64,000 nt of DNA from Liolophura sinensis (lineage: Eukaryota), in the NCBI RefSeq assembly GCF_032854445.1, contig NC_088300.1, forward strand, positions 60,598,969-60,662,968, given 5' to 3'. A model generated the notes under the pieces. The model was not told the origin of the DNA. It ran no database searches and was given only the letters and a program-made list of their open reading frames with translations. Each line of letters begins with the position of its first letter. Positions within the stretch are counted from its first letter, which is position 1. Shown here one piece after another: positions 5,256 to 61,563 of the stretch. Both the position numbers and the translations under genes were made by a program.

Positions 5256-5273
5256 GTTCATTCATTCACTCAG

Positions 5274-10260: not shown

Positions 10261-10395
10261 AGATCGAGCTCTAGCTTACAGCTTCAGCTAATGCTTTAAA
10301 TCGAGATGTTTGTCTGGTACCCAGAAATGTTGATGGGTTACCTCAAGCACCTGTGAATAAATAAATAAAGTAAATTTACTTTCTCACCTGTGCAG

Positions 10396-10553
10396 GTATA
10401 TTCACTTGGAGTGGACAGGTGACAGGGATGATTACAACCCCACCTGTTACCAACGCCTGATCTACACCAGCTCCACCACTCTCGTCCCTCTACCCAAAGA
10501 TATCAGCTGGCTGAGTCTGTCACCAAGTGGAACTACTTTTGCTTACGCTGTTG
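10396..10553 (+). CDS. NWD1: NWD1-like exon (RYIHLEWTGDRDDYNPTCYQRLIYTSSTTLVPLPKDISWLSLSPSGTTFAYAV)
   Basis: Acceptor ctgtgcag, donor gtaagat. The frame continues from the exon ending at 8984 across the repeat-filled intron. Confidence 0.7.
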
Positions 10554-10770
10554 GTAAGATATCTTCTCTTCGCCCTGACACATATTCTGTTCACACCTCA
10601 CAGATACATGCATTGTTTTGAGAGATGGATTAAAGGTGACATTTTTTGATAAAGTTGTTGTTGTTAGTAGGCATCTCCTGTTCTTGTATAAGATTGTTTA
10701 AATTACCTTTTGTTGTAACAATTACTACCGTTGAATTTGCTTTTATTTATTTCATTTTCATTGCTTTTAG

Positions 10771-11671
10771 GAAATAATGTTTTTGTGCGACGCGGTGATT
10801 CCATTCTAAAATCAAGAAGAGTAACAAAGGAAGTAAAATTAAGTCAAACTGATTCCGTAACACACTTGGTTATCTCCCCTGATGACAATTATCTCGTCAC
10901 AACAACACTAGAAAATAAACAGTTTGTCTGGGAACTGGAAACTAACAGCTGTCTCCATGAATTGGGAAGTGCAGAGAAAAGTTTTGCCGGCAGCAGCAAG
11001 GACCTGCACTGCGTTCACATCACCAAAAAGAACTGGTTGATCTGTCCCGGGCTGAATTACAATACAAGGAACCAGATTTATGTGACAAATATAGAAACTG
11101 GGGAAAAAGTGTGTGAATTAAAGGGAGCAAGCAGCCATTACAGTATCGAGTTAATACGTATAAATCCTAGAGAAAATATCGTCCTTCTGGCAACTCGTGA
11201 CGACTGTGTGATCAACGGCATTGAGGATAAGTGGGGGATGCTGTGGAACCTGGAATCTGGAACGTTGTTGTCACAGTGCTCTGCTGTCAATGGCCCTTAC
11301 ACTGAGGTCAAACTGGTCGAGGATGGTGACGATATGTTTGTTATCTTGTGTGAAAAGCGCAGCCCTGTCATCAATATCCTGTGGGCTGGATCGGAGTCGG
11401 ATCCGTTAGAGACGGCGGTTTTGGTCCATGTTCTGGTAGCCCACAATGATTCTATCATACAGCTGGTCCTGAACGAGGACATACTGGTGTCAGCTTCACA
11501 AGACAACACTGTGAAGGTGTGGGACTTCAGAGAGATCAGGGCGGAGCTTCAGAGCCGGGTGCAAACAGCGGAATCACCAGAGGAAGCCAAGTTTTGCCCA
11601 TCCTTAGAGGAAGGAAAGCTACCAGTGCCGGGTAGGGATCAGATCAAAACCACAGCCATGGTAGTCTGCGA
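10771..11671 (+). CDS. NWD1: NWD1-like WD40-repeat exon (about 300 aa, ...NTVKVWDF...)
   Basis: Long open frame matching the 10731..11675 ORF track. Acceptor cttttag, gtaagt donor at 11672. The exon ends in phase 2 and continues in frame into the exon at 12970. Confidence 0.7.
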
Positions 11672-12969
11672 GTAAGTAATCTAAGGAGAATCACGATTGA
11701 TTGCAGGAATGATTTAAATAGTTATGTTTGATTTAGGTTTTATCTGATACTATTACATAATGCATTAGTCACATGGTTACTCAGTGATAGGATACAGAAA
11801 TATATGGTGTCAGTAACCTTTACTATATATTTACATGTGTCCTGTCTCTTAGTAACCAAGTTATTAGTTTATTATAATATTTTTCGGGATAATATTACAT
11901 GTGTATACATGTACATTTGTGGTCAACATCAAATATTATACTAGCAAGCAATAACATGTCACCCAAAAATCGGTTTAGTCTCGCAATACAAAAGATGGCA
12001 TGGGATACCATTACTTCTGTGAGGAACTTAAATTTTTTTCTTTATAGTGTGGTAAAACAAGGATGGGAGGAATTGAGTCAGTTTCAAACCAGGTAGATTA
12101 ATAAAGGCCAGGTGCATTTTTCTGTGTGGAAGTTGCTAGTTTCATCGTGATTCTTTTAGACTTTCATTGTTGTGGTGTTGTACACAGTGCATGTAAATGT
12201 TATGTTATATTTCACTTAAAGGGAAAGACCTCTAAAAATCGAAGTAGGCATCACCAGGTGGACCGCTAAAAACTTATGCTCAAATATATTTACATTCATT
12301 TTTTTAGATTTTTGAGAAAAGAATTAAAGGGGCTCAATCATTTAACTTCTAAGGAGGGTTTTGTGGACCATACCATCAGAGGTTATGAACTCTGACATCA
12401 CAGGAAGTTTGTCCAACTCTAATCTTGACAATGAATGTTGGAATAACTCATTTTACCCATGAGTGAAAGATTACTGAAATAATGTTCCCAATAATTCCTT
12501 CATTCTGGTGAACATAAGAAAAAATGGTGATGTGACGTCAGAATTGCTGGATACCATCAGTGTGGCTCATAAAACCCACCATTGTTTTCAGATATTTGAA
12601 TGCCTTTCAACACTGTCAAAAAAATCTAAAAAATAAATGAAAGTATTTTTACACATAGTTTTCAATTGTCTTTATGAGGAACCTTACTTCATGTTTTAGC
12701 TTTCTTTTACTTTAGAGTTGACACCCTGGTGGTAACTGAGCCTGGGAATCTCAGACACTTCACCAATATCAAACCTATATCAAAATATAATCAGTATATT
12801 ATGTTCACTTGTGGCTTTAAGTCAGGAGGTGTCATAAACTCCTGGTGAAGTGTCATGGTTTCCCCGGTCTCTACCCAGTTTTCCCCACCCATAAATTTGA
12901 CTCTTATCGTGAATAAAATAAGCACCATATCAAAGACAGTAAATTGAGTACTCATTTTCACTCTTCCAG

Positions 12970-13151
12970 GAACCGAGCTGTGGTTGGCAGCAAGGATGGG
13001 TTCCTGATATTTTATGACCTGGTCACCTGCACACAGTTGGGTCACATCAGGCCATGCACAACTGAGATCATTGGTATACTGGTTACGAAGAACAAACAGC
13101 ATGTTGTGGCTGCATCTCCTAAGTCACTTTTCATACTGGAATCTAATGGAG
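12970..13151 (+). CDS. NWD1: NWD1-like WD40 exon (NRAVVGSKDGFLIFYDLVTCTQLGHIRPCTTEIIGILVTKNKQHVVAASPKSLFILESNG)
   Basis: Acceptor ctcttccag, donor gtaaac. Phase-consistent with its neighbours. Confidence 0.7.
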
Positions 13152-13304
13152 GTAAACATAGTGGGTACTGCCTAGATTTGCTAATGCATTCCCTAAAACT
13201 GCTAACCTTTGTATCAAAAAGTGTGCAGGGCTGAACATAAACTTCATACAAGTGGTATTGATGGATTCTTTGGGTAAATCTGAGACGAGTTAAAGGTATT
13301 CATA

Positions 13305-14595
13305 TGGGTGGGTCATATTCAGGTGGGTCTGAGGGATTGTTACAGCTCGGTCTGAGGGATTTGTACAAATGGGTCATTGCAGGGGTAGAAATGACGTCTG
13401 TCTACCTGTTGGCGACAGGCAATTTTTATCGGCGACAGGTCACAAAAAAACTCAGCTGTTGCAGCGACAGTTAGACACAAAAAGTTTTCAATCATGTTTA
13501 AGTCAATATCCATGCATGTCTGTGTTTCTGAAGTCTGTATATTTACTAGGCCTTTCCATAATCAGAATGTTGATGCAAAACTTCGTCATGTTCGGCCCAA
13601 ACAAGTGAACACTGTTAGGACGTCATCTAGTGGACAAGGCCTTCGTCAACGAACCTATCGCCTTTATGCTTTCAATTCCGAGACCAAACATACCTTCAAC
13701 ATTGAAGAACGCGCTTCGGTTATTACAGCAACAGCAAAATCAGATCTGCAAAAAGCCGTTTTTGTTACGTAAAATGCCTTTTGTAACACTTTTTCTTAAG
13801 GGTCCACAGCTATCCTGGAAGGAATAGTGTCTACAGGTGCCACTCAACCTGAACTAGAGAACAGTCAAAGGAGAGCAGCGAATCAATCAAAAGTTGAAGT
13901 GTCACCCATGACTCAGAAGTTTCTCAACATTGCATTTGCAGAAGATTAAATCAAATAAATAAATAACAAAATGTGAAATTAATATATATAGTCTCGGCCT
14001 CTTCCTAACGCCCAAAATTGTACAGCTCTAAGACCACATTGTTTACTTTTCTCGCTCGAGGACTATGCGTGGCATTGCAGGTGTAAAGGGGAACAACTCA
14101 AGACACACATAAATCTAAACGCACACGACAGAGTGGTTTTCCTCGGTCGTTTCCCTTGAATGGGAAGCGCATGCATACGCAAGCACAGACTGAACTGTCG
14201 GAAGTAAGTTTCAATTTAATTGATCGACTGTGCAGAAGTCCCAATCATGACAGAATATTGAATAAAAAGGAAAATGGTACTGAAACCAAATATTCTTGTA
14301 ACACAGTAGACTGATATTGCTTTGCCAAGGTGACGGTGTTGACAGAAAATTTTATGTTCACAAAAATGTGACAATGGCGACTTTCTAAAAGTAACACTGA
14401 TGGGGACAGGTGACTGGTAGAAAAAAAATCTACCGGTTTCTGTGACAGGCGGTTTTAAAAAAACACCTCTTGGTCTGAGGAATTTGTACAGCTGGGTCAG
14501 AGGGATTTTGTACATCTGGGTCAGAGGGATTTGTACCGCTTTGTCCGAGGGATTTGTACCGCTTGCTCTCAGGGATTTGTACCGCTTGGGGTGAA
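13305..14595. mobile_element. Putative transposable element or composite repeat in an NWD1 intron, with a CpG-rich unique core flanked by related end blocks
   Basis: Shared blocks (gg)tctgagggatttgtacag repeated 2-4 times plus a gacaggtSac motif at 13310-13445 and 14400-14590. The core 13450-14400 is unusually CpG-rich for this window and carries unassigned ORFs 13494..13772 and 13630..13827. Confidence 0.35.
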
Positions 14596-14737
14596 AGATA
14601 CATATAGGCATAATTACTGTACATGTACTCTGATTAGAAAATGTGCCGGTTGTAAATATACCGGTTCAGTGAAATGTAGTTATGTCAAAAATACCAGAGA
14701 CTTGTGTCTGTATCTGTGAAAAGATTTCAGGGTCAAA

Positions 14738-14900
14738 ATGGGGCCTCCTTAGCTCAGTTGGTTTACACGCTAGCGCAGCGTAATGACCCAGGAGCCTCTC
14801 ACCAATGCAGTCGCTGTGAGTTCAAGTCCAGCTCATGCAGGCTTCCTCTCCGGCCGTGTGTGGGAAGGTTTGTCCATAAGCTAGCACAAATGTCAGTTTT
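14738..14900 (+). mobile_element. tRNA-derived SINE, family A, copy with intact tRNA-like head (ggggcctccttagctcagttggtt...gagttcaagtccagctc)
   Basis: Box A-like TAGCTCAGTTGG and box B-like GAGTTCAAGTCC. The body ctcatgcaggcttcctctccggccgtgtgtgggaaggt is shared with more than 12 other copies. Confidence 0.8.
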
Positions 14901-14951
14901 GTGGTAAACTGTCCACACGTGTGCTTATACCTGAATCACATCTTTCTTACA

Positions 14952-15074
14952 GATACTATTATCAGGGAAATCACTGCCCCAAAGAAAATCAACTGTTTAT
15001 CAGAGGCAAGTGACATCATAGTGGCTGGTCATGGAGGGATGGAAGCATATGGTTATGCCTGGAATCTACACACA
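14952..15074 (+). CDS. NWD1: NWD1-like exon (DTIIREITAPKKINCLSEASDIIVAGHGGMEAYGYAWNLHT)
   Basis: Acceptor ttcttacag, donor gtgtgt. Phase-consistent. Confidence 0.65.
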
Positions 15075-15639
15075 GGTGTGTCTGCAAGCAGTTCATAAAG
15101 GAATCCAAGCTTATATTTAGGAGCAAATCTGTTCAGCTAGCATTTACAACATGCTAATGACACTTCCGATATAAGAATATAAGATCTCACTAGCATGGCA
15201 CTAACTCACAACTACATGTAGCATACACAGGCTTCCAGGTTTCCTGGACCATTTCACTGATCTGCTAATGTAGAGTTGCTTCACTAGTTTGCTGATATCG
15301 TCATCATTTGCATTGTTTGTTGTTGTTTATTTTTTTTTTTTAGATAAAAATATTACTGCCCAGTCAGGGTACTTGAAATGTGTGTGTAAGTGTTTTCAGC
15401 AGGTTAATGTATTAGGACTACGTGTACAACATTATCATTTATATCCAGTCTTTGGGATTCGTATCACAATAACATACATCTGTTTGCTTTGCACACTGGT
15501 TCTACGACTGTCAAGTCCCTCACATATTCTCATATTTTAATATGTATTTTTTTTCTTACTGTTATGTAGATCTTCACTTCTTAGAACTTGCTGATTTTAT
15601 TGTTTTTCTAAAATGGTACATCATGTTTTTGGATTTCAG

Positions 15640-15710
15640 GTGAATTGCTTGCCAAGTTTCAAGGACTGTATGGTTTTCACTGGATAGCCATTAATTCCAA
15701 AGGAACTCAT
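15640..15710 (+). CDS. NWD1: NWD1-like exon (GELLAKFQGLYGFHWIAINSKGTH)
   Basis: Acceptor ggatttcag, donor gtatgt. Phase-consistent. Confidence 0.65.
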
Positions 15711-16149
15711 GTATGTATATCTTCTAACTACCTCTTATTTCAGTGGTTGGAAACCTGTGGCCATACACATAAGTATTTCAGTGTGTCAACATATACCTTT
15801 ACAAATTACTGTCACCAAGACAGTAATATTTATGCATGTGGTCTTAACTTTAAAGGTTAAGCAAAACCTGTCAGAGTCTTGCGTGTGTATATATTTTTCT
15901 TCTGCTATGAATTTCACTAAACATATCTGGGTTTTCACAGATTACACCAAGAACTTTGTTTTCCATATTCTTGATGTCCTGGAAAAGTTACCTTCAGAAA
16001 TAATGTGACAAAACATAGGGTATGGGCCTGGTCATTATTCATGATGTAAAGTCTGTTCTTTTCTGTTTTATCTCATTGTAATTTTAGTGAAGCCACCTCA
16101 TGAGTCAGGGATTCCCTCTCCCTCAATGAGGCCTTGGTGACAGTAAGTG

Positions 16150-16300
16150 GTCGTTTTTGCTGGTTTGGCAGCTTGCAAAATCATGAAGAGTTACTTGACC
16201 AGCGTCTGTATATCATAAGGGAAAGTTCGTTAGTAGCTTGCCAAGGGTCAGTGGTTTACCCTGGGCTCTCCCCACCAAACTAACCACCATTGTAGCAGTG
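16150..16300 (+). mobile_element. SINE family A-related variant copy
   Basis: gggtcagtggtttaccctgggctctccccaccaaactaaccaccattgtagcagtgaaaacttcttgagtgtggcattaaacaacaatc. Confidence 0.55.
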
Positions 16301-16431
16301 AAAACTTCTTGAGTGTGGCATTAAACAACAATCAGTCGAACCATACCTGTGTATACTACAAGGTTTGATGTTGAAAAAACAAATCAGATATTTCAAACTC
16401 TCCAGTATTTTTAATATCTTTCACTTTTCAG

Positions 16432-17121
16432 CTTGGAGGTTCATTCTTTGAGTATCCAGTCCTCTATTCAGTGGAGTCAGGTGATATCCTGACAGCCCTG
16501 GACAAGGCTGATGTGATGATGTCATCACAGTCCTTCCTGGTGTTTAGCCCAGATGACCGCTACCTCGCTGGCGGATCCACTGACGGGAGCGTCCGGGTTA
16601 TTGATGGCCAAAAGGGAAAATACCTCTGCCGCTTTCAGCAACTCTCCTCAGCCATACAGGGCTGTTTTTCACCAGACAGCAATATTTTGGTCACGACCGG
16701 TTTCCGCACGTTGTTCTTGTGGTCAATGGAACAAGGTACTTTGTTATGGTCACTTTCTCGGCACCACGACTTTGTGGTCAAGCTGAAGTTTTGTCTGGAT
16801 GGACGGTATCTGGTGACCTCCTCCAAAGACAAGAGAATTGTGGTTTGGGATTGGAAGCATTTATACTCAGTCTGTGATCACATGGCTCACTGTCCAATAG
16901 ATGTCATGGATGTGGCAGACGATCTGACATCGGTTATCTATGCTCCCGATAGCGTCAGTTATGTAGCTATTCTCAAACCTAACCCGTACATGACCCAAAA
17001 GTTGAATGGTCAGATACAGCACACTCTGGCATCTCGTTTCCATGACGCCCAAGCTGTGGCCCTCTCATTCTCCAGTCAGGGCCTGACAAGGGAGACAACT
17101 AGGGCTTGTATTCTCCTGTAA
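16432..17121 (+). CDS. NWD1: NWD1-like terminal coding exon, WD40 repeats and stop (…TRACILL*)
   Basis: A 230-codon open frame matches the 16471..17121 ORF track, with WD40 motifs such as LVTSSKDKRIVVWDW. The C-terminus ACILL* resembles the human NWD1 C-terminus SQVCLIV. AATAAA at 17211-17216 lies about 90 nt downstream. Confidence 0.75.
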   Translation, partial: LGGSFFEYPVLYSVESGDILTALDKADVMMSSQSFLVFSPDDRYLAGGSTDGSVRVIDGQKGKYLCRFQQLSSAIQGCFSPDSNILVTTGFRTLFLWSMEQGTLLWSLSRHHDFVVKLKFCLDGRYLVTSSKDKRIVVWDWKHLYSVCDHMAHCPIDVMDVADDLTSVIYAPDSVSYVAILKPNPYMTQKLNGQIQHTLASRFHDAQAVALSFSSQGLTRETTRACILL

Positions 17122-23289: not shown

Positions 23290-23770
23290 AAACAGATGGG
23301 CTAAAAATGAGCTACAACTGAGCCAGTTGGACAACAGCTGAGCCGCAACTGAGCCAGCTGGACAACTGAGCCACAACTGAGCCAGTTGGACAACAACTGA
23401 GCTGCAACTGAGCCAGCTGGACAACTGAGCCACAACTGAGCCAAATGGACATCAACTGAAGCCAGTCGGACAACAGCTGAGCCAGCTGGACAACAACTGA
23501 TCCAGTTTGACAACAGCTGAGCCGCAACTGAACCAGCTGGACAACTGAGCCACAACTGAGCCAGTTGGACAACAACTGAGCCAATTGGACATCAACTGAA
23601 GCCAGTTGGACAACAGCTGAGCCAGTTGGACAACAACTAAGCCAGCTGGACAGTAACTGAGCCAGATGGACAACAAGTTTCAATTACAAAGCTAGCTGGA
23701 CAACATCTGAGTCAGTTTGACAACAACTAAGCTGGCTGGACAACAACTGGGCCACAACTGAGCCAGTTGT
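23290..23770. repeat. Minisatellite of about 20 bp, CTGAGCCAGYTGGACAACAA-like, in MVP intron 22
   Basis: Degenerate tandem periodicity. The minus-strand ORFs 23242..23683 are repeat artefacts. Confidence 0.85.
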
Positions 23771-23923
23771 ACAACAACTGCATATATTAATGACATTACC
23801 ACTGACAACTGAAAACATGAGAAAGAAATTGTAAACAGCTATGATTTATATGCATTCAATGTGGAAACTGTTCAACAAAATTAAGAGATTTCACACTGAG
23901 AAGAACGTGTACAGAGGTGTGCT

Positions 23924-24140
23924 GACAAACAACTGAGCACTCACCAGATCTTGTATGCTTACAAACAACTGAGCACTCACCAGATCTTGTATGTTTACAA
24001 ACAACTGAGCACTCACCAGATCTTGTATGCTTACAAACAACTGAGCACTCACCAGATCTTGTATGCTTACAAACAACTGAGCACTCACCAGATCTTGTAT
24101 GCTTACAAACAACTGAGCACTCACCAGATCTTGTATTTCC
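23924..24140 (-). repeat. Tandem array of six 36-bp units duplicating the MVP exon 22 donor junction (ATACAAGATCTG|gtgagtgctcagttgtttgtaagc)
   Basis: Perfect or near-perfect 36-nt periodicity, contiguous with the real donor at 24125. The minus-strand frame stays open through the array, as in ORF 23891..24205. Confidence 0.9.
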
Positions 24141-25579: not shown

Positions 25580-25680
25580 TTAGTTGCGATCTCAATGGCC
25601 ATCTGAACAGACTTCATCAAACTGTCTCTCATCTTGAGGTCTACTGGTTCTATACTCTGGATGTCAATACTTGTGACCAC
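25580..25680 (-). CDS. MVP: MVP exon 20 ([33 protein letters not shown])
   Basis: Matches human [34 protein letters not shown]. The acceptor side abuts a junction-derived tandem array. Confidence 0.9.
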
Positions 25681-26310
25681 CTGGTAACAGAATACCATGG
25701 ATTTTAATACATGTGACCAACTGATAACAGAATAGTTCTGGATATCAATACTTGTGACCAAATGATAATAGATTACTCTGGAATTCAATACATGTGATCA
25801 ACTGATAACAGAATAGTTCTGGATATCAATACTTGTGAAACCCTGGTAACAGATTACTCTGGATGTCAATACATGTGACCAACTGATAACAGAATAGTTC
25901 TGGACATCAATACTTGTGACCAAATGATAATAGATTACTCTGGAATTCAATACATGTGATCAACTGATAACAGAATAGTTCTGGATATCAATACTTGTGA
26001 CCACCTGGTAACAGATTACTCTGGATGTCAATACATGTGACCAACTGATAACAGAATAGTTCTGGACATCAATACTTGTGACCAAATGATAACAGATTAC
26101 TCTGGATGTCAATACATGTGACCAACTGATAACAGAATAGTTCTGGACATCAATACTTGTGACCAAATGATAATAGATTACTCTGGATTTCAATACATGT
26201 GATCAACTGATTACAGAATAGTTCTGGATATCAATACTTGTGACCAAATGATAACAGATTACTCTGGATTTCTATACTTGAGATCAACTGATAAAAGAAT
26301 ACTGTGGATG
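25681..26310 (-). repeat. Tandem array, about 40-bp units in an 80-bp higher-order repeat, about 15 copies. It duplicates the first 29 nt of MVP exon 20 plus the acceptor ttaccag.
   Basis: Units such as attactctggatgtcaatacatgtgaccaa|ctgataacag recur upstream, in the gene sense, of the real acceptor at 25680/25681. Confidence 0.85.
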
Positions 26311-26603
26311 TCGATGCTTGTGTGATGGCCTGGTAAAAAAAATAGGTATCATTACTGTCATTACTCTGGATGTCAATACTTGTGACCAACCGATAACAGA
26401 ATACTTCTGGATATCAATATTTGTAACCACCTGACAAGAGAATACTTCTGGGTATTAATACTTGTCAGCATATGACAACAAAATACTTCTGGATATCAAT
26501 TCTTGTGACATAACAAATGATAAGAGAACACTCCATATAACATTACATGTACATACACGTATTACTGGCACTTACTGGCAAGCCCCATCAGACTTCAACC
26601 TAC

Positions 26604-31610: not shown

Positions 31611-31671
31611 CGCCCCTGTCTGGACATCTCTGACGTATACCCCCTCATTCTCACTCAGGGGAATCTTCTCT
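31611..31671 (-). CDS. MVP: MVP exon 12 (REKIPLSENEGVYVRDVQTGA)
   Basis: Matches human [21 protein letters not shown]. Donor gtaagg. Confidence 0.85.
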
Positions 31672-32184
31672 CTGCAATGAAGTATGCATTAGGGGGCAAT
31701 TTATTATCATACAAACACTAAAGGAAAGGACGGCTCAAAAGTGTTGATAAATCATCAATAAGAGTAGCATTCCTGAGAACTGTTACATTCACACTCTTTG
31801 TTTTCTTATAATATTTTCAAAGAATTACATATACATAGTCAAATGTATTAAGCAAACAAGTAAACATATAGCCTAAGGTTATACCAATCTTATTTTGTGT
31901 TTTACGAGCAAGCAGATACTAAAAAATCCAAAATTGGAATAAAAAAAAACTGAAAATTCACTTTTCATTTTGTTTGATTTTGCTTGGTAATTTTATGATT
32001 TTCCTGTTTTTCAAAGCATTCCAATAATGTAAATATGTGTTTTTTAAGCTGTTGCTTTTTATATACTTTCCTCGGACATTGGAATAAGATTTATTCTGCT
32101 TGTAAAAAGGAATTTAAAATGAATGTGGCCAAACTGTAGACTTAGCTAACATGGTTCAACCCACAGTGTTCTCAGTTCTCCAGA

Positions 32185-35178
32185 TAACAAGGACCTCATC
32201 ACTAACATACATGTACATCTATCTCTCATCAATGATGTTAAGCTCAATAGGGGGAATATATTCACAAGGACCTCATCACTAACATACATGTACATCTATC
32301 TCTCATCAATGATGTTAATCTCAATAGGGGGAATATATTCACAAGGACCTCATTACTTACATACATGTACATCTATCTCTCATCAATGATGTTAATCTCA
32401 ATAGGGGGAATATATTCACAAGGACCTCATCACTAACATACATGTACATCTATCTCTCATCAATGATGTTAAGCTCAATAGGGGGAATATATTCACAAGG
32501 ACCTCATCAATTACATACATGTACATCTATCTCTCATCAATGATGTTCAGCTCAAAGAGGGGAATATATTCACAAGGACCTCATCAATTACATACATGTA
32601 CATCTATCTCTCATCAATGATGTTAAGCTCAATAGGGGAATATATTCACAAGGACCTCATCATTAACATACATGTACATCTATCTCTCATCAATGATGTT
32701 AATCTCAATAGGGGGAATATATTCACAAGGACCTCATCACTAACATACACGTACATCTATCTCTCATCAATGATGTTAAGCTCAATAGGGGGAATATATT
32801 CACAAGGACCTCATCAATTACATACATGTACATCTATCTCTCATCAATGATGTTAAGCTCAATAGGGGGAATATATTCACAAGGACCTCATCAATTACAT
32901 ACATGTACATCTATCTCTCATCAATGATGTTAATCTCAATAGGGGGAATATATTCACAAGGACCTCATTACTTACATACATGTGCATCTATCGCTCATCA
33001 ATGATGTTAAGCTCAATAGGGGAATATATTCACAAGGACCTCATCACTAACATACATGTACATCTATCTCTCATCAATGATGTTAAACTCAATAAGGGGA
33101 GTATATTCACAAGGACCTCATCAATTACATACATGTACATCTATCTCCCATCAATGATGTTAAGCTCAATAGGGGGAATATATTCACAAGGACCTCATCA
33201 CTTACATACATGTACATCTATCTCTCATCAATGATGTTAATCTCAATAGGGGGAATATATTCACAAGGACCTCATAACTTACATACATGTGCATCTATCT
33301 CTCATCAATGATGTTAAGCTCAATAGGGGGAATATATTCACAAGGACCTCATTACTTACATACATGTACATCTATCTCTCATCAATGATGTTAAGCTCAA
33401 TAGGGGAATATATTCACAAGGACCTCATCACTAACATACACGTACATCTATCTCTTATCAATGATGTTAAGCTCCATAAGAGGAATATATTCACAAGGAC
33501 CTCATCACTTACATACATGTACATCTATCTCTCATCAATGATGTTAAGCTCAATAGGGGGAATATATTCACAAGGACCTCATCACTAACATACATGTGCA
33601 TCTATCTCTCACCAATGATGTTAAGCTCCATAAGAGGAATATATTCACAAGGACCTCATCAGTAACATACATGTACATCTATCTCTCATCAATGATGTTA
33701 ATCTCAACAGGGGGAATATATTCACAAGGACCTTATCAGTAACACACACGTACATCTATCTCTCATCTCATCAATGATGTTAATCTCAATAGGGGGAATA
33801 TATTCACAAGGACCTCATCACTAACATACATGTACATCTATCTCTCATCAATGATGTTAAGCTCAAAGAGGGGAATATATTCACAAGGACCTCATCACTA
33901 ACATACATGTGCATCTATCTCTCCCCAATGATGTTAAGCTCAATAGGGGGAATATATTCACAAGGACCTCATCAATTACATACATGTACATCTATCTCTC
34001 ATCAATGATGTTAATCTCAATAGGGGGAATATATTCACAAGGACCTCATCACTTACATACATGTACATCTATCTCTTATCAATGATGTTAAGCTCAAAGA
34101 GGGGAATATATTCACAAGGACCTCATCAATTACATACATGTACATCTATCTCTCATCAATGATGTTAATCTCAATAGGGGGAATATATTCACAAGGACCT
34201 CATCACTAACATACATGTGCATCTATCTCTCACCAATGATGTTAAGCTCAATAGGGGGAATATATTCACAAGGACCTCATCAATTACATACATGTACATC
34301 TATCTCTCATCAATGATGTTAATCTCAATAGGGGGAATATATTCACAAGGACCTCATCACTAACATACATGTACATCTATCTCTTATCAATGATGTTAAG
34401 CTCAAAGAGGGGAATATATTCACAAGGACCTCATCACTAACATACATGTGCATCTATCTCTCACCAATGATGTTAAGCTCAATAGGGGGAATATATTCAC
34501 AAGGACCTCATCAATTACATACATGTACATCTATCTCTCATCAATGATGTTAATCTCAACAGGGGGAATATATTCACAAGGACCTCATCACTTACATACA
34601 TGTACATCTATCTCTCACCAATGATGTTAACCTCAATGGGGGAATATATTCACAAGGACCTCATCAATTACATACATGTACATCTATCTCTCACCAATGA
34701 TGTTAAGCTCAATAGGGAGAATATATTCACAAGGACCTCATCACTTACACACATGTGCATCTATCTCTCACCAATGATGTTAAGCTCAATAGGGGGAATA
34801 TATTCACAAGGACCTCATCAATTACATACATGTACATCTATCTCTCATCAATGATGTTAAGCTCAATAGGGAGAATATGTTCACAAGGACCTCATCACTT
34901 ACACATATGTGCATCTATCTCTCATCAATGATGTTAAGCTCAATAGGGGGAATATATTCACAAGGACCTCATCAATTACATACATGTACATCTATCTCTC
35001 ATCAATGATGTTAACCTCAATGAGGGGATATATTCACAAGGACCTCATCACTAACATACCGGGATACATGTATATACACAAGGACTTCATCATGAACATA
35101 CACTTTACCTCTGGTCAATGATGTTAACCTCAATAAGAGGATATATTCACAAGGACCTCATCACTAACATACATGTAC
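32185..35178 (-). repeat. 3 kb tandem array, 78-bp unit, about 39 copies. It duplicates the 3' 45 nt of MVP exon 11 plus the donor and the first 22 nt of the intron.
   Basis: Minus-strand unit gtccttgtgaatatattccccctattgagcttaacatcattgatgagag atagat gtacatgtatgtaattgatgag. It is contiguous with the true exon 11 donor at 35179. The plus-strand ORFs inside the array are periodic artefacts. Confidence 0.9.
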
Positions 35179-35248
35179 CTCTTGTCAATGATGTTAACCT
35201 CAATTGGGGGGATATATTCACAAGGACCTCTAATCATCCATCTGTCAC
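35179..35248 (-). CDS. MVP: MVP exon 11 (GDRWMIRGPCEYIPPIEVNIIDK)
   Basis: Matches human [25 protein letters not shown]. The donor gtacat abuts the 3 kb junction-derived tandem array. Confidence 0.8.
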
Positions 35249-35667
35249 CTGGCTCTCTGTCTATTTTAACTGAGAGCAATGAACAATGAGAAACATTAAT
35301 ATTTTAATTCATTACAATCGGATAGTCAAGCGTTTTGAGAATTTATACCTAAGAATGATGAAAAATGAGAAACTGTAAGAAACAAGGAGAAATATTACCA
35401 TTTTATTCCATGGGATTTTATGAGCTTTATAAGAATCAATACTGGAGCATTATTCTTACAATTTTCAAAGTACAACGATAACTGATTAAACTTCTCATCT
35501 GCCTAGAGGGTAGCCTTTAATTTCTCATTTACCAGAGAACAACCATGGTCATTAGAACAATTCAAATGATCTTGACATTTATTTATGAAGTAAAAACTGT
35601 TATCAGCATTTTATCAGAGACATTAATTACGAGAAAAAACATCCTGAAATGAACGTTCCCATCTTAC

Positions 35668-46822: not shown

Positions 46823-47020
46823 ATGGCTGAAACACCCAGTGAGTTTAAGCTGAAAAACCCTCCAATGGATGGAGTGTCTGCTGTTAAATTTGGTCCTAAC
46901 TCCAGCCAGCACCTGCTGGTATCATCATGGGACTGCACTGTGCGGCTATATGATGTCATCAGTAACAATATGAGGTTGAGCTTCCCACAGCAAGCCCCAG
47001 TCCTCGATTGCTGTTTTCAT
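46823..47020 (+). CDS. BUB3: BUB3 coding exon 1 (MAETPSEFKLKNPPMDGVSAVKFGPNSSQHLLVSSWDCTVRLYDV...)
   Basis: Matches human BUB3 [64 protein letters not shown]. Donor gtatgt. Confidence 0.9.
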
Positions 47021-47500
47021 GTATGTACATGGGCTTGGTTGTTCAAAAGTGTATTAGATAATACTGATATTAAGTTATATTATATATTAATATATTAATT
47101 TAACAAAAACCCAGCTACCAAATGGAACAGTAGCAGACTTAGTTCATATTAATAAACTGTTCCACAATTATTTGAGCCAAGTGCAAAACTGAAGACTTCA
47201 AGTTAAATCTGCTATGAAGTCTCAAGACTGTTTTGAACAACCAGCTGGTTCATATTACAAAACATGAAAAAATGACTTAAAGTAAATAGTAACAAAGAAA
47301 ATATGCATTAAATACACATGTAGTCTCTTTGACAGTGGTTGTTCTGAACATATATTTGAAACTTGGCAGATCCAGTATGGTCATGCATATGCACGGTACA
47401 AAGGAAGACTTTGCTGGCTCAAAGCGAAGTCCTTATAGTATGGAAAGTTTCTCTGTTGTCTTATTAATTTCATTGTCTAACTTTCCTGACCATTTTTCAG

Positions 47501-47570
47501 GATTCAGTTCGAGCGTATAGTGGAGGATTGGACAAAGTTCTGAAAACTTTTGATTTTAACACTAATGCAG
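47501..47570 (+). CDS. BUB3: BUB3 exon 2 (DSVRAYSGGLDKVLKTFDFNTNA)
   Basis: Matches human DPTHAWSGGLDHQLKMHDLNTDQE. Acceptor ttttcag, donor gtaagt. Confidence 0.85.
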
Positions 47571-48170
47571 GTAAGTGTGTCTGCAATAAAAGTATGATTG
47601 TTGCCAGCGAGAAAAAGTTGTATTATCAGCATGTCAATAAAAATAGTTGATAGTTTAATTTTGACCCAATGCATGTCTTTATCTGCTTGTCAGTAAAAAT
47701 AGTTGATAGTTTAATTTTGAACCAATACATGTCTTCATCCTATGGAATTCAATCAGCAGACTGATACACAGGTTTTTAAGTATGATATCAAAACTGGCCT
47801 TTTTTCTGGGCCTCCTTTTCTCTGGTGTAAGTTGAGAACAACATCATTGTCAAGTCAGGCTGTCTGGAGTGTGGTGTGTAAAATCAAGCTAATAAGTGAA
47901 GAAAATAAGCATGAAACCTGTATGTGTATGGCACCGTATAAAGTAGTGTTAGCTGGTATTCTGACGTCTGGAGCAATATTCATCTGCTCAGATTACATTC
48001 ACATCATGATCTACTTGTAATAAATTTGTCGTTGTCGTTCTCGCTATTTTCATCCGCCTCGACAAATTTTATAGCAGCAATGAATGGACTCCAAAGTACA
48101 TGTGTTTTCATTGGTGGTCCACTATTATGAGTAACTATTGTATATATTCCCTATTGTTGTGTTTGTACAG

Positions 48171-48322
48171 AGAGAAGTGTAGGAATGCATGACGCCCCTA
48201 TACGCTGTGTTGAGTTCTGCCCAGATGCTAATGTCATTGTCACAGGAAGTTGGGATTCTACTGTCAAACTATGGGACCCACGGACACCCTGTAATGCTGG
48301 CACCTTCTCACAACCTGACAAG
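48171..48322 (+). CDS. BUB3: BUB3 exon 3 (ERSVGMHDAPIRCVEFCPDANVIVTGSWDSTVKLWDPRTPCNAGTFSQPDK)
   Basis: Near-identical to human GTHDAPIRCVEYCPEVNVMVTGSWDQTVKLWDPRTPCNAGTFSQPEK. Confidence 0.95.
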
Positions 48323-48800
48323 GTAGGTGGACTCGCATCATGTCCGCAGGTTTTTTTGTTTATCCAGTTTCAATTGAAATTCTGTTTTTTGTGCCTGATT
48401 ATACACATACTGTTACTTGTTCAGAGATATGACCTGAAATGTACTGGTAATTCCTCAAAAATTACTGCATTATTTACAAAAAAATTAAGTTTAATACAGT
48501 TTATTTAATTTTTTTTTTTAATAGACATTCTTGCTAGAATGTTTCATATGTCAAAGAAGTAATTTTTGCAGCAACTCTACTATGACATTTTCAAAGATAT
48601 TAATCTAGAAAAACCGATTTTAATTCAGGAAAGCCTTATGTCTACTGAAAGTAGTCATCTTGTGAGAGTTTTTAAGGTATGAGATATAAAGACCTTGATT
48701 TTTAGAAGTTTAATACAAATCAAACAGTTTTATTTCTAAAGTTTTGCCTGCTTTGAAAATCCTGACATTTTCATTTAAGTTATATCATTCTCTGTTACAG

Positions 48801-48984
48801 GTATACACCTTGTCTGTTTGTGGGGACAGACTAATTGTTGGAACTGCAGGGAGAAAGATTTTGGTTTGGGATCTCCGAAATATGGGTTATGTACAACAAC
48901 GACGAGAATCCAGCCTGAAATATCAGACACGATGCATTCGAAGTTTCCCTAACAAACAAGGCTATGTTCTCAGCTCCATTGAAG
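48801..48984 (+). CDS. BUB3: BUB3 exon 4 ([61 protein letters not shown])
   Basis: Near-identical to human [62 protein letters not shown]. Confidence 0.95.
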
Positions 48985-49534
48985 GTACCACTACATACAT
49001 CAATACTTTGTAACTTTTGTGCGGTGCTTTTGGATTGGACACATCATAAGATTATTAGCAAGTAGCCAGTTTTCAACACAGACTCAGACCATAACAAAGA
49101 CTTAATAATATGCAGTATTAGTAATTACTTGTTATAAAGTGTTCACCATCCTTTGGGGTCCAAGCGAGCACTGGTTGGTTTTGGAGCCAATCCAGTATGA
49201 CTGGTTATGCATGTTGTGAGATGGAATCTGGTGTCTTCAGCATGGTGTTTTAGAGAGGCAGCACCATGCACATGTCATTGTGGACATTGGGAGCTGCATG
49301 GGAAGAATCCAAGGGATGGTGAAAGGGACATTCAACTCAAACCTTTAAGTTGGGAACCTTTGTCTTGTGAATTGTTTTACACCAGGCACCCCAGTTTCCT
49401 CACTGTCTGCCATAAAAAATTTATTTTACACATCAGTCAAATAAATAAAAGCCCAAGCTACCAGGCAGCTAAACTGTTAAAGGCTCTTGCATAAAGGATA
49501 AAGTGTTATCTAACTCTCATTTCTCTGCTCCCAG

Positions 49535-49754
49535 GTCGTGTTGCAGTGGAGTACTTGGATCCCAGCCCTGAGGTACAGAAGAAGAAATATGCATTTAAAT
49601 GTCACCGTGTGAAGGAGCAGGGCAAAGAGAAGATCTACCCTGTCAATGCTATAGCCTTCCATAACGTCCACAACACATTTGCCACAGGCGGCTCTGACGG
49701 CATTGTGAACATCTGGGACGGCTTTAATAAGAAGAGACTGTGTCAGTTCCACAA
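49535..49754 (+). CDS. BUB3: BUB3 exon 5 ([73 protein letters not shown])
   Basis: Near-identical to human [72 protein letters not shown]. Confidence 0.95.
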
Positions 49755-50529
49755 GTAAGTCTTTCTGTTTGTCAGTCCCCGGAGACAGATTCAGCAAAGC
49801 CAGTTTTGACATAAATCAGTCAGTTCCTGAATCATGCATTTAAGGCTTATTTGAATGTTTTTTTATACTCTAATGCATCACCTAGACTTCATCTGGGCAC
49901 AGTGTCACAAAACGGCGTACAACTTTTTTTTATCATACAATTGTCGTACGATATTTTGTGTGTCACCATTACTGTACCGTTGCCCTACATGTGGGGTTAT
50001 CGTACATGCAGGATATCTATGTGAAACGGGGTCCCGATGAGGATGGAGAGTTTGAAATATATTTGAGTCACACCAGCCCCTGATAAAGTTGGAGACCAAT
50101 ATACAGCTCTTCGTCATTACAGCACTTTCTCATTACAGCACTGTTGTTATGGGGACAAACCTGCCTGGCATGCTGTTTATGGTGCGCACTACATGATGTT
50201 CGTTTGCCACCTAAAACCTGTATGATATATAATATAGGAACAGATACAGTGACAAATGAGCGAAATATCATGGCTTTCGGTGAATAATTAGTCAAGATAG
50301 TCAAGCATCAGAGTGTAAAGAAGATACAAAATCTGGAGGCTGTGTTATACGGAATTACGTGTTTGTAATGAACTGTGTTATAATGAGAGAGGGTGTACAC
50401 GTAACTACAGTGTACTGTGCGTAGTCGTTAAGGCAAGCCAATGAGTGTTCTGTCCTCCAAGAAATTTATCGTATCATAGACACTTTTTCTGGGAGATAAT
50501 TGTCCCTGCTGTATATGTGATAGGGACAG

Positions 50530-53194: not shown

Positions 53195-53700
53195 CATTTA
53201 TAAAGAGCTTAAAGACAATATTGGACACACTGATTCCCTGAATAGTTGGAAGAGAGCAAATTTGGACATACTGTTTCTCTTACCAGCTGGAGAAGAGAAA
53301 ATTTGGACACACTGATTCCCTGAATAGTTGGAAGAGAGCAAACTTGGACATACTGTTTCTCTCACTAGCTGGAGAAGGGCAAATTTGGACATAATGTTTC
53401 TTTCACCAGCTGGAGAAGAGCAAATTTGGACATGCTGATTCTCTGAATAGGTGGAGAAGAGCAAATTTGGACATGCTGTTCCTCTCACTAGCTGGAGAAG
53501 AGCAAATTTGGACATGCTGTTTCTCTGAATAGGTGGAGAAGAGCAAATTTGGACATGCTGTTCCTCTCACTAGCTGGAGAAGAGCAAATTTGGACATGCT
53601 GTTTCTCTCACTAGCTGGAGAAGAGTAAATTTGGACATGCTGATTCTCTGAATAGGTGGAAAAGTGCAAATTTGGACGTGCTGTTTCTCTGAATATCTGA
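53195..53700. repeat. Tandem repeat of about 60 bp (agagcaaatttggacatgctgtttctctcactagctggagaag), about 8 copies, just 3' of BUB3
   Basis: Direct periodicity. Minus-strand ORFs 53198..53825 are artefacts. Confidence 0.85.
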
Positions 53701-53809
53701 GAAAAAAAGGGAAATACGGATATGCTGCCTTTACAGATAGCTGGGGAAATGGCTAGTGTTTCAATTTCAGTTCCATGCATTACCTGTAATATTTCATTTT
53801 CAGAGACTT

Positions 53810-53945: not shown

Positions 53946-54879
53946 TGATGACGTATACTATCACAGCCCTGTCTTGGTCCATAAGCTTACCTTGAACACC
54001 TCTTTACTTCCCTTGCTTATATACAATTTGTCTGTCTGTACTCATAGTCAACGCAGCTATCAGTTCCAGGTAGCTGTTCCCATGTGTCATTACTAATAAA
54101 CCCACACAAGCATAAAACTATAGTGGAAACTGGATAAATTCCAACTCCCATGTTTGAATGCCTGCTCCTCACAGCCCACACAAGGGAGATAACTACTGAC
54201 ATTACTAGCAATTAGTATATTTTGTACATCTTGTTTAATCTGTTCCTTAATTGTTTGAGAATTTTTTTTTTATTCCTCAGTGTTGATTATGGGTCCCTTC
54301 TATGTCATTACTGGTGAGACTGATCCTAAACAATCAGCCAGTATGCTTGTCAAAAGGTCTAACTTGCCTAGTAGTGGCAGTGGTAATTGTATACAATGTA
54401 CATGATTCCCCTCACTGTGAGGAGTATGCATTTAAACATAGTGGTTGGAGTTAGAATTTATCCAGTTTCCACTAGTTTCATGCTTGTGTGGGTTTACCAG
54501 TGATGACACATGGAAACACCTACCTGAAACTGATTGCTGAGAAGACTATGAGAACAGACAGACACATTACTTGGCGGCCAACAGTAGTGTATTGAAGCCA
54601 GCACTCAAAGTACAGAGGTGTTCAGGGTAAGCTTATGGAACAAGGCAGGGCTGTGATAGTACACGAAATCACAGCCCTACAAAGCTACATCAAACCATAA
54701 TACTAGTCACTGTGGTACAAGTGAAATATTCTTGAGTGGCCTCTTTTTCATCTTAGTCTCATCCCTGTATTTTGTCATCACTCAAATGAGAACAGATATT
54801 TTGGACATCTAGGAACCAATCCAAAAAAACTTTACCCACCTACAAAGATACTGAGGTTTACCTTATTCCACCACAAAAA

Positions 54880-55490
54880 TGCATTTTTACCATTGTCAGA
54901 CGAAACACTGCACCACAAAAATGCATTTTTACCATCGTCAGACGAAGACTGCACCACAAAAATGCCTTTTTACCATCGTCAGACAAACACTGCACCATAA
55001 AAATGCATTTTTACCATCGTCAGACAAACACTGCACCATAAAAAATGCATTTTTACCATCGTCAGACGAAGACTGCACCACAAAAATGCATTTTTACCAT
55101 CGTCAGACAAACACTGCACCATAAAAATGCATTTTTACCATCGTCAGACAAACACTGCACCATAAAAATGCATTTTTACCATCGTCAGACGAAGACTGCA
55201 CCATAAAAATGCATTTTTACCATCGTCAGACAAACACTGCACCATAAAAATGCATTTTTACCATCGTCAGACGAAGACTGCACCATAAAAATGCATTTTT
55301 ACCATCGTCAGACGAACACTGCACCACAAAAATGCATTTTTACCATCGTCAGACGAACACTGCACCACAAAAATGCATTTTTACCATCGTCAGACGAACA
55401 CTGCACCACAGAAATGCATTTTTACCATCGTCAGACAAACACTGCACCACAAAAATGCATTTTTACCATTGTCAGACAAACACTGCAATG
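54880..55490. repeat. 41-bp tandem repeat (caaaaatgcatttttaccatcgtcagacgaacactgcacca), about 15 copies
   Basis: Direct periodicity. The + ORFs 54879..55559 are artefacts. Confidence 0.9.
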
Positions 55491-61400: not shown

Positions 61401-61563
61401 GACAGAACTGTAAACATATGAAAGTTGGCACATTGGTCTCCTACCAGAAGTCACCATTTTAATGAACCAAGCCTGACGATGAAAGAGAATGTAAATGCCA
61501 GGCAAACAGACTGAGTCCTCAGGCAGTATTTGGGGTCCTTGTACATGAAGAACAGCTACTTAC

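What the first reader, a model, noticed from the sequence alone, without database searches (positions are those of the whole stretch)
32185..35248. Exon-junction array 4: 3 kb array of about 39 78-bp units copying the MVP exon 11 3' end plus donor
This is the largest repeat in the window. The minus-strand unit gtccttgtgaatatattccccctattgagcttaacatcattgatgagag|atagat|gtacatgtatgtaattgatgag corresponds to the real exon 11 3' end GTCCTTGTGAATATATCCCCCCAATTGAGGTTAACATCATTGACAAGAG plus its donor gtacatgtatgttagtgatgag. About 39 tandem pseudo-donors sit downstream of the real one. The 78-nt unit is 26 codons, but minus-strand stops (tga, tag) occur within each unit, so read-through would truncate the protein. 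This array produces all the periodic plus-strand ORFs at 32596-35121.
Basis: seen in the sequence. Interest (0 to 1): 0.7.

Follow-up and report, generated by a model that had tools for sequence, protein, structure and literature searches.

The report
Exon-boundary "mirage" minisatellite in chiton MVP
A 3-kb tandem repeat in an intron of the chiton major vault protein gene grew from a duplicated 71-base piece spanning the exon 11/intron 11 boundary; this kind of repeat is already known from amphioxus ("mirages") and human genes, and it is common in the same gene of other marine invertebrates, so it is real but fairly ordinary.

Summary
The array is real. The window is the Liolophura sinensis (chiton) major vault protein (MVP) locus on the minus strand. 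Intron 11 (35178..31672, 3,507 nt) is about 85% tandem repeat. The founder unit is the last 49 nt of exon 11 plus the first 22 intron nt. It is followed by one old 71-nt copy, a truncated copy, 37 units of about 77 nt carrying a 6-nt insertion at the old junction, and an 8-nt stub.

It is not the largest repeat in the window (57993-61416 is larger). The copied donor is degraded in the 77-mers.

This is a boundary-spanning minisatellite, a known kind: amphioxus "mirages" and the human F7 IVS7, CBS, LMNB2 and PDGF repeats. The intron is ancient (268-779 nt in abalone, limpet and oyster), so the expansion is lineage-specific.

The same gene has two more such arrays (exon 22 donor, exon 20 acceptor). 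MVP genes of 9 other invertebrates carry 17 more, some larger.

The most likely reading is a neutral by-product of duplication and unequal exchange, with the first donor used. A possible excess of boundary-spanning arrays among expanded arrays is suggestive but depends on the null model.

The parts
35179..35269 (-). MVP coding exon 11 (91 nt, aa 354-383 plus 2 nt).
   Evidence: The spliced model reproduces P0001/XP_064599755.1 exactly. The orthologous exon is 91/91/88 nt at the same phase in Haliotis, Patella and Ostrea.
35157..35227 (-). Founder unit (unit 0, 71 nt): last 49 nt of exon 11 (35227..35179) plus first 22 nt of intron 11 (35178..35157).
   Evidence: The exon part encodes the conserved GPCEYIPPIEVNIIDK.
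35173..35181 (-). Authentic exon 11 donor GAG|GTACAT. It is weak: 5.4 bits against a range of 3.9-11.5 for the gene's other donors.
35086..35156 (-). Unit 1: an old 71-nt copy without the insertion. It carries the donor-like GAG|GTAAAG (G of the GT at 35108; 9.4 bits) and the first in-frame stop met on read-through (TGA 35132..35130, codon 400).
35044..35085 (-). Unit 2: a truncated and rearranged 42-nt copy.
32195..35043 (-). Units 3-39: 37 copies of 76-82 nt (modal 77), each with ATAGAT inserted at the former exon/intron junction. They are about 96% identical to their own consensus. The consensus matches the founder at 65 of 71 positions outside the insertion.
   Evidence: Multi-unit exact repeats (151 nt at a 3-unit offset, 129 nt at a 4-unit offset) are shown.
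32187..32194 (-). Terminal partial unit GTCCTTGT, followed by unique intron sequence. It is either the end of the array or the remnant of an 8-nt direct repeat that seeded the first duplication.
31672..32186 (-). Unique remainder of intron 11 (515 nt). Without the copies the intron would be about 537 nt.
   Evidence: Orthologous introns are 268-779 nt.
31611..31671 (-). MVP coding exon 12 (61 nt).
23920..24136 (-). Second boundary-spanning array in the same gene: 6 x 36 nt, each unit being the last 11 nt of exon 22 plus 25 nt of intron 22. All six CTG|GTGAGT donors are identical.
25656..26506 (-). Third boundary-spanning array: 41/81-nt units that copy the intron 19 acceptor plus the first ~28 nt of exon 20. 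The acceptor junction 30-mer occurs 16 times (15 extra copies plus the authentic junction at 25695).

Best explanation
The array is a boundary-spanning intronic minisatellite, a 'mirage' in amphioxus terminology and the same kind as the human F7 IVS7 VNTR.

Shown: a 71-nt segment straddling the exon 11/intron 11 boundary of the chiton MVP gene was tandemly duplicated into the intron. One copy acquired a 6-nt insertion at the old junction, and that 77-nt variant was amplified to about 37 copies. The interior of the array is homogenised, while the units next to the exon keep founder-like states. Multi-unit blocks are repeated exactly. The intron itself is ancient and short in other molluscs.

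Inferred: the first duplication arose by slippage or unequal exchange, possibly between the 8-nt GTCCTTGT repeats. Expansion was by unequal crossing-over or replication slippage in one- to four-unit register. Splicing uses the most upstream (authentic) donor, so the whole array is removed with the intron. The array itself has no function. Its only likely effects are a longer intron, occasional mis-splicing to transcripts with a premature stop at codon 400, and probable length polymorphism.
For: Array and unit anatomy. The exon/intron model reproduces the RefSeq protein exactly with the first donor. The exon-derived part of the unit is conserved coding sequence in 10 species. Intron 11 is at the same position and phase in Haliotis, Patella and Ostrea but only 268-779 nt long, so the expansion is lineage-specific. 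Units 1, 3 and 8 retain founder states, and units 3-39 are 96% identical to their own consensus. Exact repeats at 3-unit and 4-unit offsets and recurring variant blocks are shown. The unit is absent elsewhere in the window. Stops occur in all frames, and any donor beyond +6 gives a stop at codon 400. There is no Rfam match. The same kind of array occurs at two other junctions of this gene and 17 times in MVP genes of 9 other invertebrates, including an independent one at the same exon 11 donor in oyster. Precedents: in human F7 IVS7 the first monomer spans the boundary and only the most upstream donor is used (PMC1557585). Amphioxus 'mirages' do not disturb splicing and show concerted evolution that excludes the boundary units (PMC3087553; PMC3902484).
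Against: No transcript or read data could be examined, so exclusive use of the first donor rests on the RefSeq model and on conservation of exon length and phase. The authentic donor is among the weakest in the gene, and a better-scoring site lies 71 nt downstream, so some mis-splicing is plausible. 'No function' is an inference from absence of evidence. The suggestive excess of boundary-spanning arrays among expanded arrays could mean that such arrays are not purely random by-products.
Confidence: 0.85

Rival explanations
1. The array is a cis-acting splicing or expression regulator. Dozens of donor-like, U1-binding motifs downstream of a weak authentic donor could recruit U1 snRNP to help define exon 11. 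Alternatively they could act as decoys that divert a fraction of transcripts into nonsense-mediated decay and so tune MVP output.
For: The real donor is weak (5.4 bits). The array carries CAT|GTATGT (32 copies in the array, 4.9 bits), TTG|GTGAGA x6 (6.9) and TAT|GTAAGT x8, and unit 1 has GAG|GTAAAG (9.4). Any use of these gives a premature stop at codon 400. Boundary-spanning arrays may be over-represented among expanded arrays.
Against: The junction-homologous donor was degraded rather than preserved in the amplified units, and 8 units lost the GT. The array is lineage-specific in an otherwise short, ancient intron. Equivalent arrays sit at different, non-conserved junctions in each species, as expected for neutral turnover. 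In F7 the pseudo-sites are silent and no regulatory element was found in the repeat (PMC1557585).
Confidence: 0.08
2. The array is an assembly artefact. It is either mis-assembled or its copy number is wrong through collapse or expansion of a repeat.
For: Tandem arrays are error-prone in assemblies. An amphioxus mirage was reported as aberrantly assembled in a draft genome (PMC3087553). Read coverage of the described L. sinensis assembly is only 14x.
Against: The units differ from each other in a structured way (variant blocks, and a gradient towards the founder), which is not what collapse or duplication errors produce. The described public L. sinensis assembly is PacBio HiFi with a mean read length of 8.3 kb, longer than the 3-kb array. 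Whether the window comes from that assembly is an inference. Similar arrays appear in independent assemblies of 6 other species.
Confidence: 0.05
3. The array is a transposon-borne or dispersed satellite that inserted next to exon 11. Its resemblance to the exon would then be secondary, through gene conversion of the exon end by the array.
For: Many mollusc minisatellites are associated with mobile elements (own knowledge, not tested here).
Against: The shared 49 nt encode residues conserved in 10 species, and the exon has the ancestral length and phase. The unit has no other copy in 64 kb. The array starts inside the exon, which an insertion cannot do without disrupting it.
Confidence: 0.02

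Closest known systems
Amphioxus 'mirage' minisatellites (Adh3, globin genes BflGb6 and BflGb9, PGBD5, troponin C)
   Same: These are tandem minisatellite-like duplications whose unit spans an exon/intron boundary. Both donor- and acceptor-side versions exist. They do not appear to disturb normal splicing. The interior of the array is homogenised while the boundary units are excluded from homogenisation (PMC3087553; PMC3902484). All of these sequence-level features are seen here.
   Different: The phylum differs (a mollusc, not a cephalochordate). The chiton array has far more copies (39, against 1-6 in the globins). The amplified unit carries a 6-nt insertion that degrades the copied donor. 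The length and somatic instability shown for Adh3 could not be tested here.
Human boundary-spanning VNTRs: F7 IVS7 (37 bp x 5-9), CBS IVS13, interferon-inducible 6-16, LMNB2 (100 bp x 10-15), PDGF intron 4 (81 bp x 16-18)
   Same: The first monomer contains the exon end plus the donor, so donor-like sites are reiterated in the intron. The authentic, most upstream donor is the one used (PMC1557585). The chiton exon 22 array (six identical donors) is the closest match to F7.
   Different: In F7 the pseudo-sites are identical to the real donor. In the exon 11 array they are mutated. F7 contributes only 4 exon nt per unit, against 49 here. Splicing behaviour is experimentally shown for F7 and only inferred here.
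Intron gain by tandem duplication across an AG|GT proto-splice site (Rogers model; invoked for mirages in PMC3087553)
   Same: It involves tandem duplication that includes splice signals.
   Different: No new intron was created here. Intron 11 is at the same position and phase in abalone, limpet and oyster. The duplication only lengthened an existing intron.
Ordinary wholly intronic minisatellite (for example window 57993-61416, 85 nt x 41)
   Same: The size class, copy number and within-array identity are the same, and it is likewise intronic.
   Different: That array starts about 145 nt after a donor and ends about 60 nt before an acceptor, so it contains no exon sequence. The exon 11 array begins 49 nt inside the exon.

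Membership tests
Boundary-spanning minisatellite ('mirage' / F7-IVS7-type VNTR) | Head-to-tail tandem array with a minisatellite-sized unit (about 10-200 nt). | tested here: met
   TRF: period 77, 37.3 copies, 93% matches, plus 2.2 copies of period 71. Forty units were dissected.
Boundary-spanning minisatellite ('mirage' / F7-IVS7-type VNTR) | The terminal monomer is the authentic exon end plus splice site, so the unit spans the exon/intron boundary. | tested here: met
   Unit 0 is 49 nt of exon 11 plus 22 nt of intron 11. The exon boundary is fixed by a spliced model identical to XP_064599755.1.
Boundary-spanning minisatellite ('mirage' / F7-IVS7-type VNTR) | The splice-site sequence is reiterated in the intronic copies. 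| tested here: inconclusive
   Unit 1 keeps a strong donor-like site (GAG|GTAAAG). In units 3-39 the homologous site is GAT|GTACAT (the -1 G is lost), and 8 units read GC instead of GT. Other donor-like motifs are repeated. The feature is fully met in the sister arrays at the exon 22 donor and exon 20 acceptor.
Boundary-spanning minisatellite ('mirage' / F7-IVS7-type VNTR) | Concerted evolution occurs within the array, with the boundary units left out of homogenisation. | tested here: met
   Units 3-39 are 96% identical to their own consensus. Units 1, 2, 3 and 8 near the exon are divergent or founder-like. Multi-unit exact repeats are shown.
Boundary-spanning minisatellite ('mirage' / F7-IVS7-type VNTR) | Normal mRNA is made from the authentic site, and the copies stay silent or nearly so. 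| not testable with these tools
   Support is only indirect. The RefSeq model uses the first donor. The exon length and phase equal those of the orthologues. Any other donor beyond +6 gives a stop at codon 400.
Boundary-spanning minisatellite ('mirage' / F7-IVS7-type VNTR) | Copy-number polymorphism or instability among alleles or individuals. | not testable with these tools
   Only one haplotype was available, and P0001 is not on record in the contig index.
Intron gain by tandem duplication (Rogers model) | The intron is new, that is, absent at this position in relatives. | tested here: not met
   Intron 11 is present at the same codon position and phase in Haliotis, Patella and Ostrea (268, 779 and 406 nt).
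Transposon-derived or dispersed satellite | There are additional dispersed copies, and the unit is unrelated to the host exon. | tested here: not met
   No hit longer than 17 nt was found outside the array in 64 kb. The unit encodes the conserved MVP peptide. A genome-wide search was not possible.
Array of cassette or alternative exons | The units have an open reading frame and flanking acceptor and donor sites. | tested here: not met
   There are stops in all three minus-strand frames of the 77-nt unit, and 77 is not a multiple of 3.

The most novel reading that the evidence does not exclude
Boundary-spanning arrays may not be random by-products. Among intronic minisatellites that have expanded to 5 or more copies, those whose unit contains an exon end plus splice site may be several-fold over-represented in marine invertebrate genes. 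In MVP genes of 10 species, 12 of 37 such arrays are boundary-spanning against about 3.3 expected. That would point to a boundary-associated process. One possibility is a mutational hotspot, for example polymerase pausing or replication conflict at splice junctions. Another is selection favouring reiterated splice-signal arrays.
Probability: 0.25. Interest if true: 0.55.

Novelty: new member of a known kind. Interest (0 to 1): 0.3.

Why it matters
In itself it matters little. It is a new, large example, and apparently the first noted in a mollusc within the searchable literature, of a known class of intronic repeat.

It has practical consequences. It creates spurious periodic ORFs and dozens of donor-like sites that can mislead gene predictors. 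It more than sextuples the length of an ancient intron. It is likely to be a hypervariable marker.

It is also a natural test of how the spliceosome picks the first of many similar splice sites outside vertebrates. That applies especially to the sister arrays in this gene and to the scallop arrays, where the copied splice site is repeated without change in the stretches inspected (all six donors at chiton exon 22; an array of about 89 units at scallop exon 24 and one of about 86 units at the exon 21 acceptor).

If the suggestive excess among expanded arrays holds genome-wide, it would bear on how minisatellites are born and on the unresolved origin of 'mirages'.

Tried and rejected
1. A 30-mer test spanning each of the 50 MVP junctions found the exon 20 and exon 22 arrays but missed exon 11, because its copies carry an indel exactly at the junction. 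Exon 11 was therefore handled by unit alignment instead.

2. Higher-order periodicity: TRF reports a 384-nt period, but mean identity by lag is flat (0.93-0.94 for lags 1-10), so there is no regular higher-order repeat. There are only local 2- to 4-unit block duplications.

3. Looking up the public contig for P0001 returned 'not on record'. The neighbourhood and alternative assemblies could not be fetched, and no close chiton relative of MVP was in the protein database. A within-chiton comparison was therefore impossible.

4. The original 'mirage' paper (Canestro et al. 2002, PMC117041) is not held. It is cited second-hand.

5. Exon status of 8826-8985 in the neighbouring NACHT/WD gene: the chiton model was not returned, and homologues do not align across that divergent region. 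This remains unconfirmed.

6. An Rfam scan of the intron gave no match.

7. Enrichment test. The naive null expects 7.7 against 20 observed (P 4.5e-5). An over-conservative null expects 12.8 (P 0.02). A hybrid null expects 10.2 (P 0.002). The six pre-specified loci alone are not significant (9 against 5.7, P 0.11). The early donor-over-acceptor bias (9:2) faded to 13:7 with more loci. I therefore do not claim enrichment as established.

8. Transposon, cassette-exon, new-intron and known-RNA readings were rejected.
Full report
**What the window is.** A recalled human MVP sequence used as a tblastn probe lit up a series of minus-strand exons from about 43880 to 21095. A protein search with the concatenated hits returned 'major vault protein-like [Liolophura sinensis]' (P0001, RefSeq XP_064599755.1) as the top hit, and its exons match the window at about 100%. 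A spliced matcher that requires codon-for-codon identity to P0001 and GT/GC-AG introns reproduced the whole protein with 25 coding exons. Exon 11 is 35269..35179 (91 nt) with donor CAAGAG|gtacatgtatgt. Intron 11 is 35178..31672 (3,507 nt, the longest in the gene). Exon 12 is 31671..31611.

**The observation.** TRF reports 32187-35059 as a period-77 array (37.3 copies, 93% matches, score 4944), followed by 35071-35230 with period 71. Splitting the minus strand at the GTCCTTGTG anchor gives 40 units plus a stub.
- Unit 0 is the authentic junction: 49 exon nt plus 22 intron nt, 71 nt in all.
- Unit 1 is a diverged 71-nt copy.
- Unit 2 is a 42-nt remnant.
- Units 3-39 are 76-82 nt, 30 of them exactly 77 nt, each with ATAGAT inserted exactly where the exon/intron junction was.
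- The array ends with GTCCTTGT, followed by 515 nt of unique intron.

Three details are wrong.
- The unit is 77 nt, not 78, so '26 codons' does not hold.
- The 85-nt x 41 array at 57993-61416 is larger.
- The copied donor is altered in most units.

The unit has stops in all three minus-strand frames. Read-through, or any donor beyond +6, ends at TGA 35132..35130 (codon 400). The plus-strand ORFs at 32596-35121 are periodic products of the repeat. The 77-mer has no other copy in the window (longest stray match 17 nt), and Rfam finds nothing.

**Direction and history.** The exon-derived part of the unit encodes GPCEYIPPIEVNIIDK. This is conserved in MVP of eight molluscs, an annelid and a sea urchin, so the exon is the source. 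Exon 11 has the same length and phase in abalone, limpet and oyster (91/91/88 nt). Intron 11 sits at the same place in those species but is only 268, 779 and 406 nt. Without its copies the chiton intron would be about 537 nt. The expansion is thus lineage-specific within an ancient intron, which excludes the 'new intron by duplication' model.

Units 3-39 are 96% identical to their own consensus. That consensus differs from the founder at 6 of 71 positions, plus the insertion. Units 1, 3 and 8, near the exon, keep founder states such as GAGGTT and ATATATC. There is no regular higher-order period. However, 151-nt and 129-nt exact repeats at 3-unit and 4-unit offsets and recurring variant blocks indicate expansion by unequal exchange in multi-unit register. 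The terminal GTCCTTGT could be the trace of an 8-nt direct repeat that seeded the first 71-nt duplication. This is an inference and cannot be distinguished from a simple partial last unit.

**Splice signals.** I built a donor weight matrix from the gene's other donors.
- The authentic exon 11 donor GAG|GTACAT scores 5.4 bits, near the bottom of the gene's range (3.9-11.5).
- Unit 1 carries GAG|GTAAAG (9.4 bits) 71 nt downstream.
- In the 77-mers the homologous site is GAT|GTACAT (the close variant GAT|GTACGT scores 2.6). Eight units read GC instead of GT.
- The array nevertheless contains CAT|GTATGT (33 copies in exon 11 plus intron 11, one of them in the founder at +6; 4.9 bits), TTG|GTGAGA (x6, 6.9) and TAT|GTAAGT (x8, 3.8).

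'39 pseudo-donors' is therefore only loosely true. The RefSeq model and the conserved exon length argue that the first donor is the one used. I could not examine transcripts.

**It is not alone in this gene or window.** Of the 50 MVP junctions, two others have tandem copies.
- Intron 22 begins with six 36-nt units, each the last 11 nt of exon 22 plus 25 intron nt. All six donors CTG|GTGAGT are identical, and the unit is in-frame and stop-free.
- Intron 19 ends with a 41/81-nt array that copies the acceptor plus about 28 nt of exon 20; the junction 30-mer occurs 16 times, the last being the real junction.

On the plus strand, the 8945-10209 array of a NACHT/WD-repeat gene starts about 37 nt inside an open frame that ends in GACAG|gttagt. 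The exon status of that frame could not be confirmed by homology. By contrast, the big 57993-61416 array is wholly intronic.

**It is not special to the chiton.** I fetched MVP loci of nine other species, built exact spliced models, and overlaid TRF arrays. Arrays containing at least 7 nt of exon and at least 7 nt of intron number as follows.

| Species | Boundary-spanning arrays |
|---|---|
| Liolophura | 3 |
| Haliotis | 2 |
| Patella | 2 |
| Ostrea | 4 (one independent array at the same exon 11 donor: 23 exon + 35 intron nt) |
| Mercenaria | 1 |
| Argopecten | 6 (up to 5.2 kb; about 89 and about 86 units copying an intact donor or acceptor) |
| Lytechinus | 2 |
| Littorina | 0 |
| Owenia | 0 |
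| Sinanodonta | 0 |

I checked eleven of the 17 non-chiton arrays... more precisely, nine of them, by eye, together with all three chiton arrays. In total 20 of 149 arrays are boundary-spanning: 13 on the donor side and 7 on the acceptor side.

**Is that more than chance?** It depends on the null.

| Null model / subset | Observed | Expected | P |
|---|---|---|---|
| Random founder placement on present-day gene length, all 10 genes | 20 | 7.7 | 4.5e-5 |
| Cruder, over-conservative formula | 20 | 12.8 | 0.02 |
| Exact placement with the arrays' own excess length removed (hybrid) | 20 | 10.2 | 0.002 |
| Hybrid, without the discovery gene (chiton) | 17 | 9.2 | 0.009 |
| Hybrid, six loci analysed with pre-specified criteria | 9 | 5.7 | 0.11 |
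| Hybrid, post hoc: arrays of 5 or more copies | 12 | 3.3 | 3e-5 |
| Hybrid, post hoc: arrays of fewer than 5 copies | 8 | 6.9 | not significant |

I treat this as a lead and not as a result.

**What is known.** Borensztajn et al. [quoted passage not shown] For F7 they show that only the most upstream donor is used, through a 5'-to-3' scanning-type mechanism. In amphioxus the same structures are called 'mirages' (Adh3, globins, PGBD5, troponin C). They occur on both donor and acceptor sides, do not disturb splicing, evolve in concert except for the boundary units, and are unstable in length. Their mechanism of origin is stated to be unclear (PMC3087553; PMC3902484). My searches found no report in molluscs.

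**Assembly.** The described L. sinensis assembly, first published as L. japonica and later corrected, is PacBio HiFi at 14x with a mean read length of 8.3 kb. That is long enough to span this array. That the window derives from that assembly is my inference.

**Verdict.** The finding is real and correctly read in outline. It is a new, large member of a known class and not a new kind of element. The most likely mechanism is neutral tandem duplication and unequal exchange, tolerated because the first donor is chosen. Overall interest is modest. The only lead with wider reach is the possible excess of boundary-spanning arrays among expanded minisatellites, which needs a genome-wide test.

Noticed in passing
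window 23920-24136 (minus strand; exon 22 donor): There are six 36-nt units, each the last 11 nt of exon 22 plus 25 intron nt, with six identical donors CTG|GTGAGT. The unit is a multiple of 3, in frame and stop-free (VSAQLFVSIQDL). Use of a downstream copy would therefore insert 12 aa per step into the MVP C-terminal helical region rather than truncate the protein.
   Followed up: partly
window 25656-26506 (minus strand; exon 20 acceptor): An acceptor-side boundary-spanning array with 41/81-nt units. The acceptor junction 30-mer (...ctgttaccag|GTGGTCACAAGTATT) occurs 16 times: 15 copies upstream plus the real acceptor junction itself. The spliceosome must skip the upstream copies to reach the real one.
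   Followed up: partly
window 8945-10209 (plus strand), in a NACHT/WD-repeat gene spanning about 3494-17121: A 76/130-nt array whose first unit starts about 37 nt inside an open frame (…LKTYDLEDGQSVATTVLSNRMCNIRLIDSDR) that ends in GACAG|gttagt at about 8985. It is probably a fourth donor-side boundary-spanning array in a second gene. The exon was not confirmed by homology.
   Followed up: partly
window 57993-61416: An 85-nt x 41 array (3,424 bp, G+C about 0.48) that is larger than the finding. It lies wholly inside an intron of another minus-strand gene, about 145 nt after a CAG|gtaagt donor near 61562 and about 60 nt before an acceptor near 57931. That acceptor precedes a short last exon and an AATAAA signal near 57715. 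The array contains no exon sequence.
   Followed up: partly
L003 13125-13272 (Ostrea edulis MVP): An independent small array (58 nt x 2.5) sits at the orthologous exon 11 donor. Its unit is the last 23 nt of the exon plus 35 intron nt, and gtgagt donors are repeated. The same junction was hit twice in different classes of mollusc.
   Followed up: yes
L005 (Argopecten irradians MVP), exons 13, 20, 21, 22, 24 and 25: Six boundary-spanning arrays lie in one gene, four of them 3.0-5.2 kb. Examples are 40 nt x 89 with GAG|GTAAGT donors unchanged in the copies inspected after exon 24, and 57 nt x 86 with unchanged acceptors in the copies inspected before exon 21. Tandem arrays make up about 60% of the 51-kb gene.
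   Followed up: partly
window 35172 (minus strand): A second donor-like site, CAT|GTATGT, lies 6 nt downstream of the authentic exon 11 donor and scores about the same (4.9 against 5.4 bits). Its use would add two residues in frame (KR-YI-EK). The orthologues show no such insertion.
   Followed up: no
window 23308-23748 (intron 22): A 20-nt-unit array (GGCTCAGTTGTTGTCCAACT-like) shares the 11-mer GCTCAGTTGTT with the exon 22 donor-array unit 200 nt upstream. The two arrays in this intron may therefore be related.
   Followed up: no
window 46823-49758 (plus strand) and 53221-53703 / 54869-55487: A WD40-repeat gene lies head-to-head with MVP, about 3 kb from its start codon. It resembles BUB3 from memory, which was not tested. 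Two unrelated 41-nt arrays lie further on, and their genic context was not examined.
   Followed up: no
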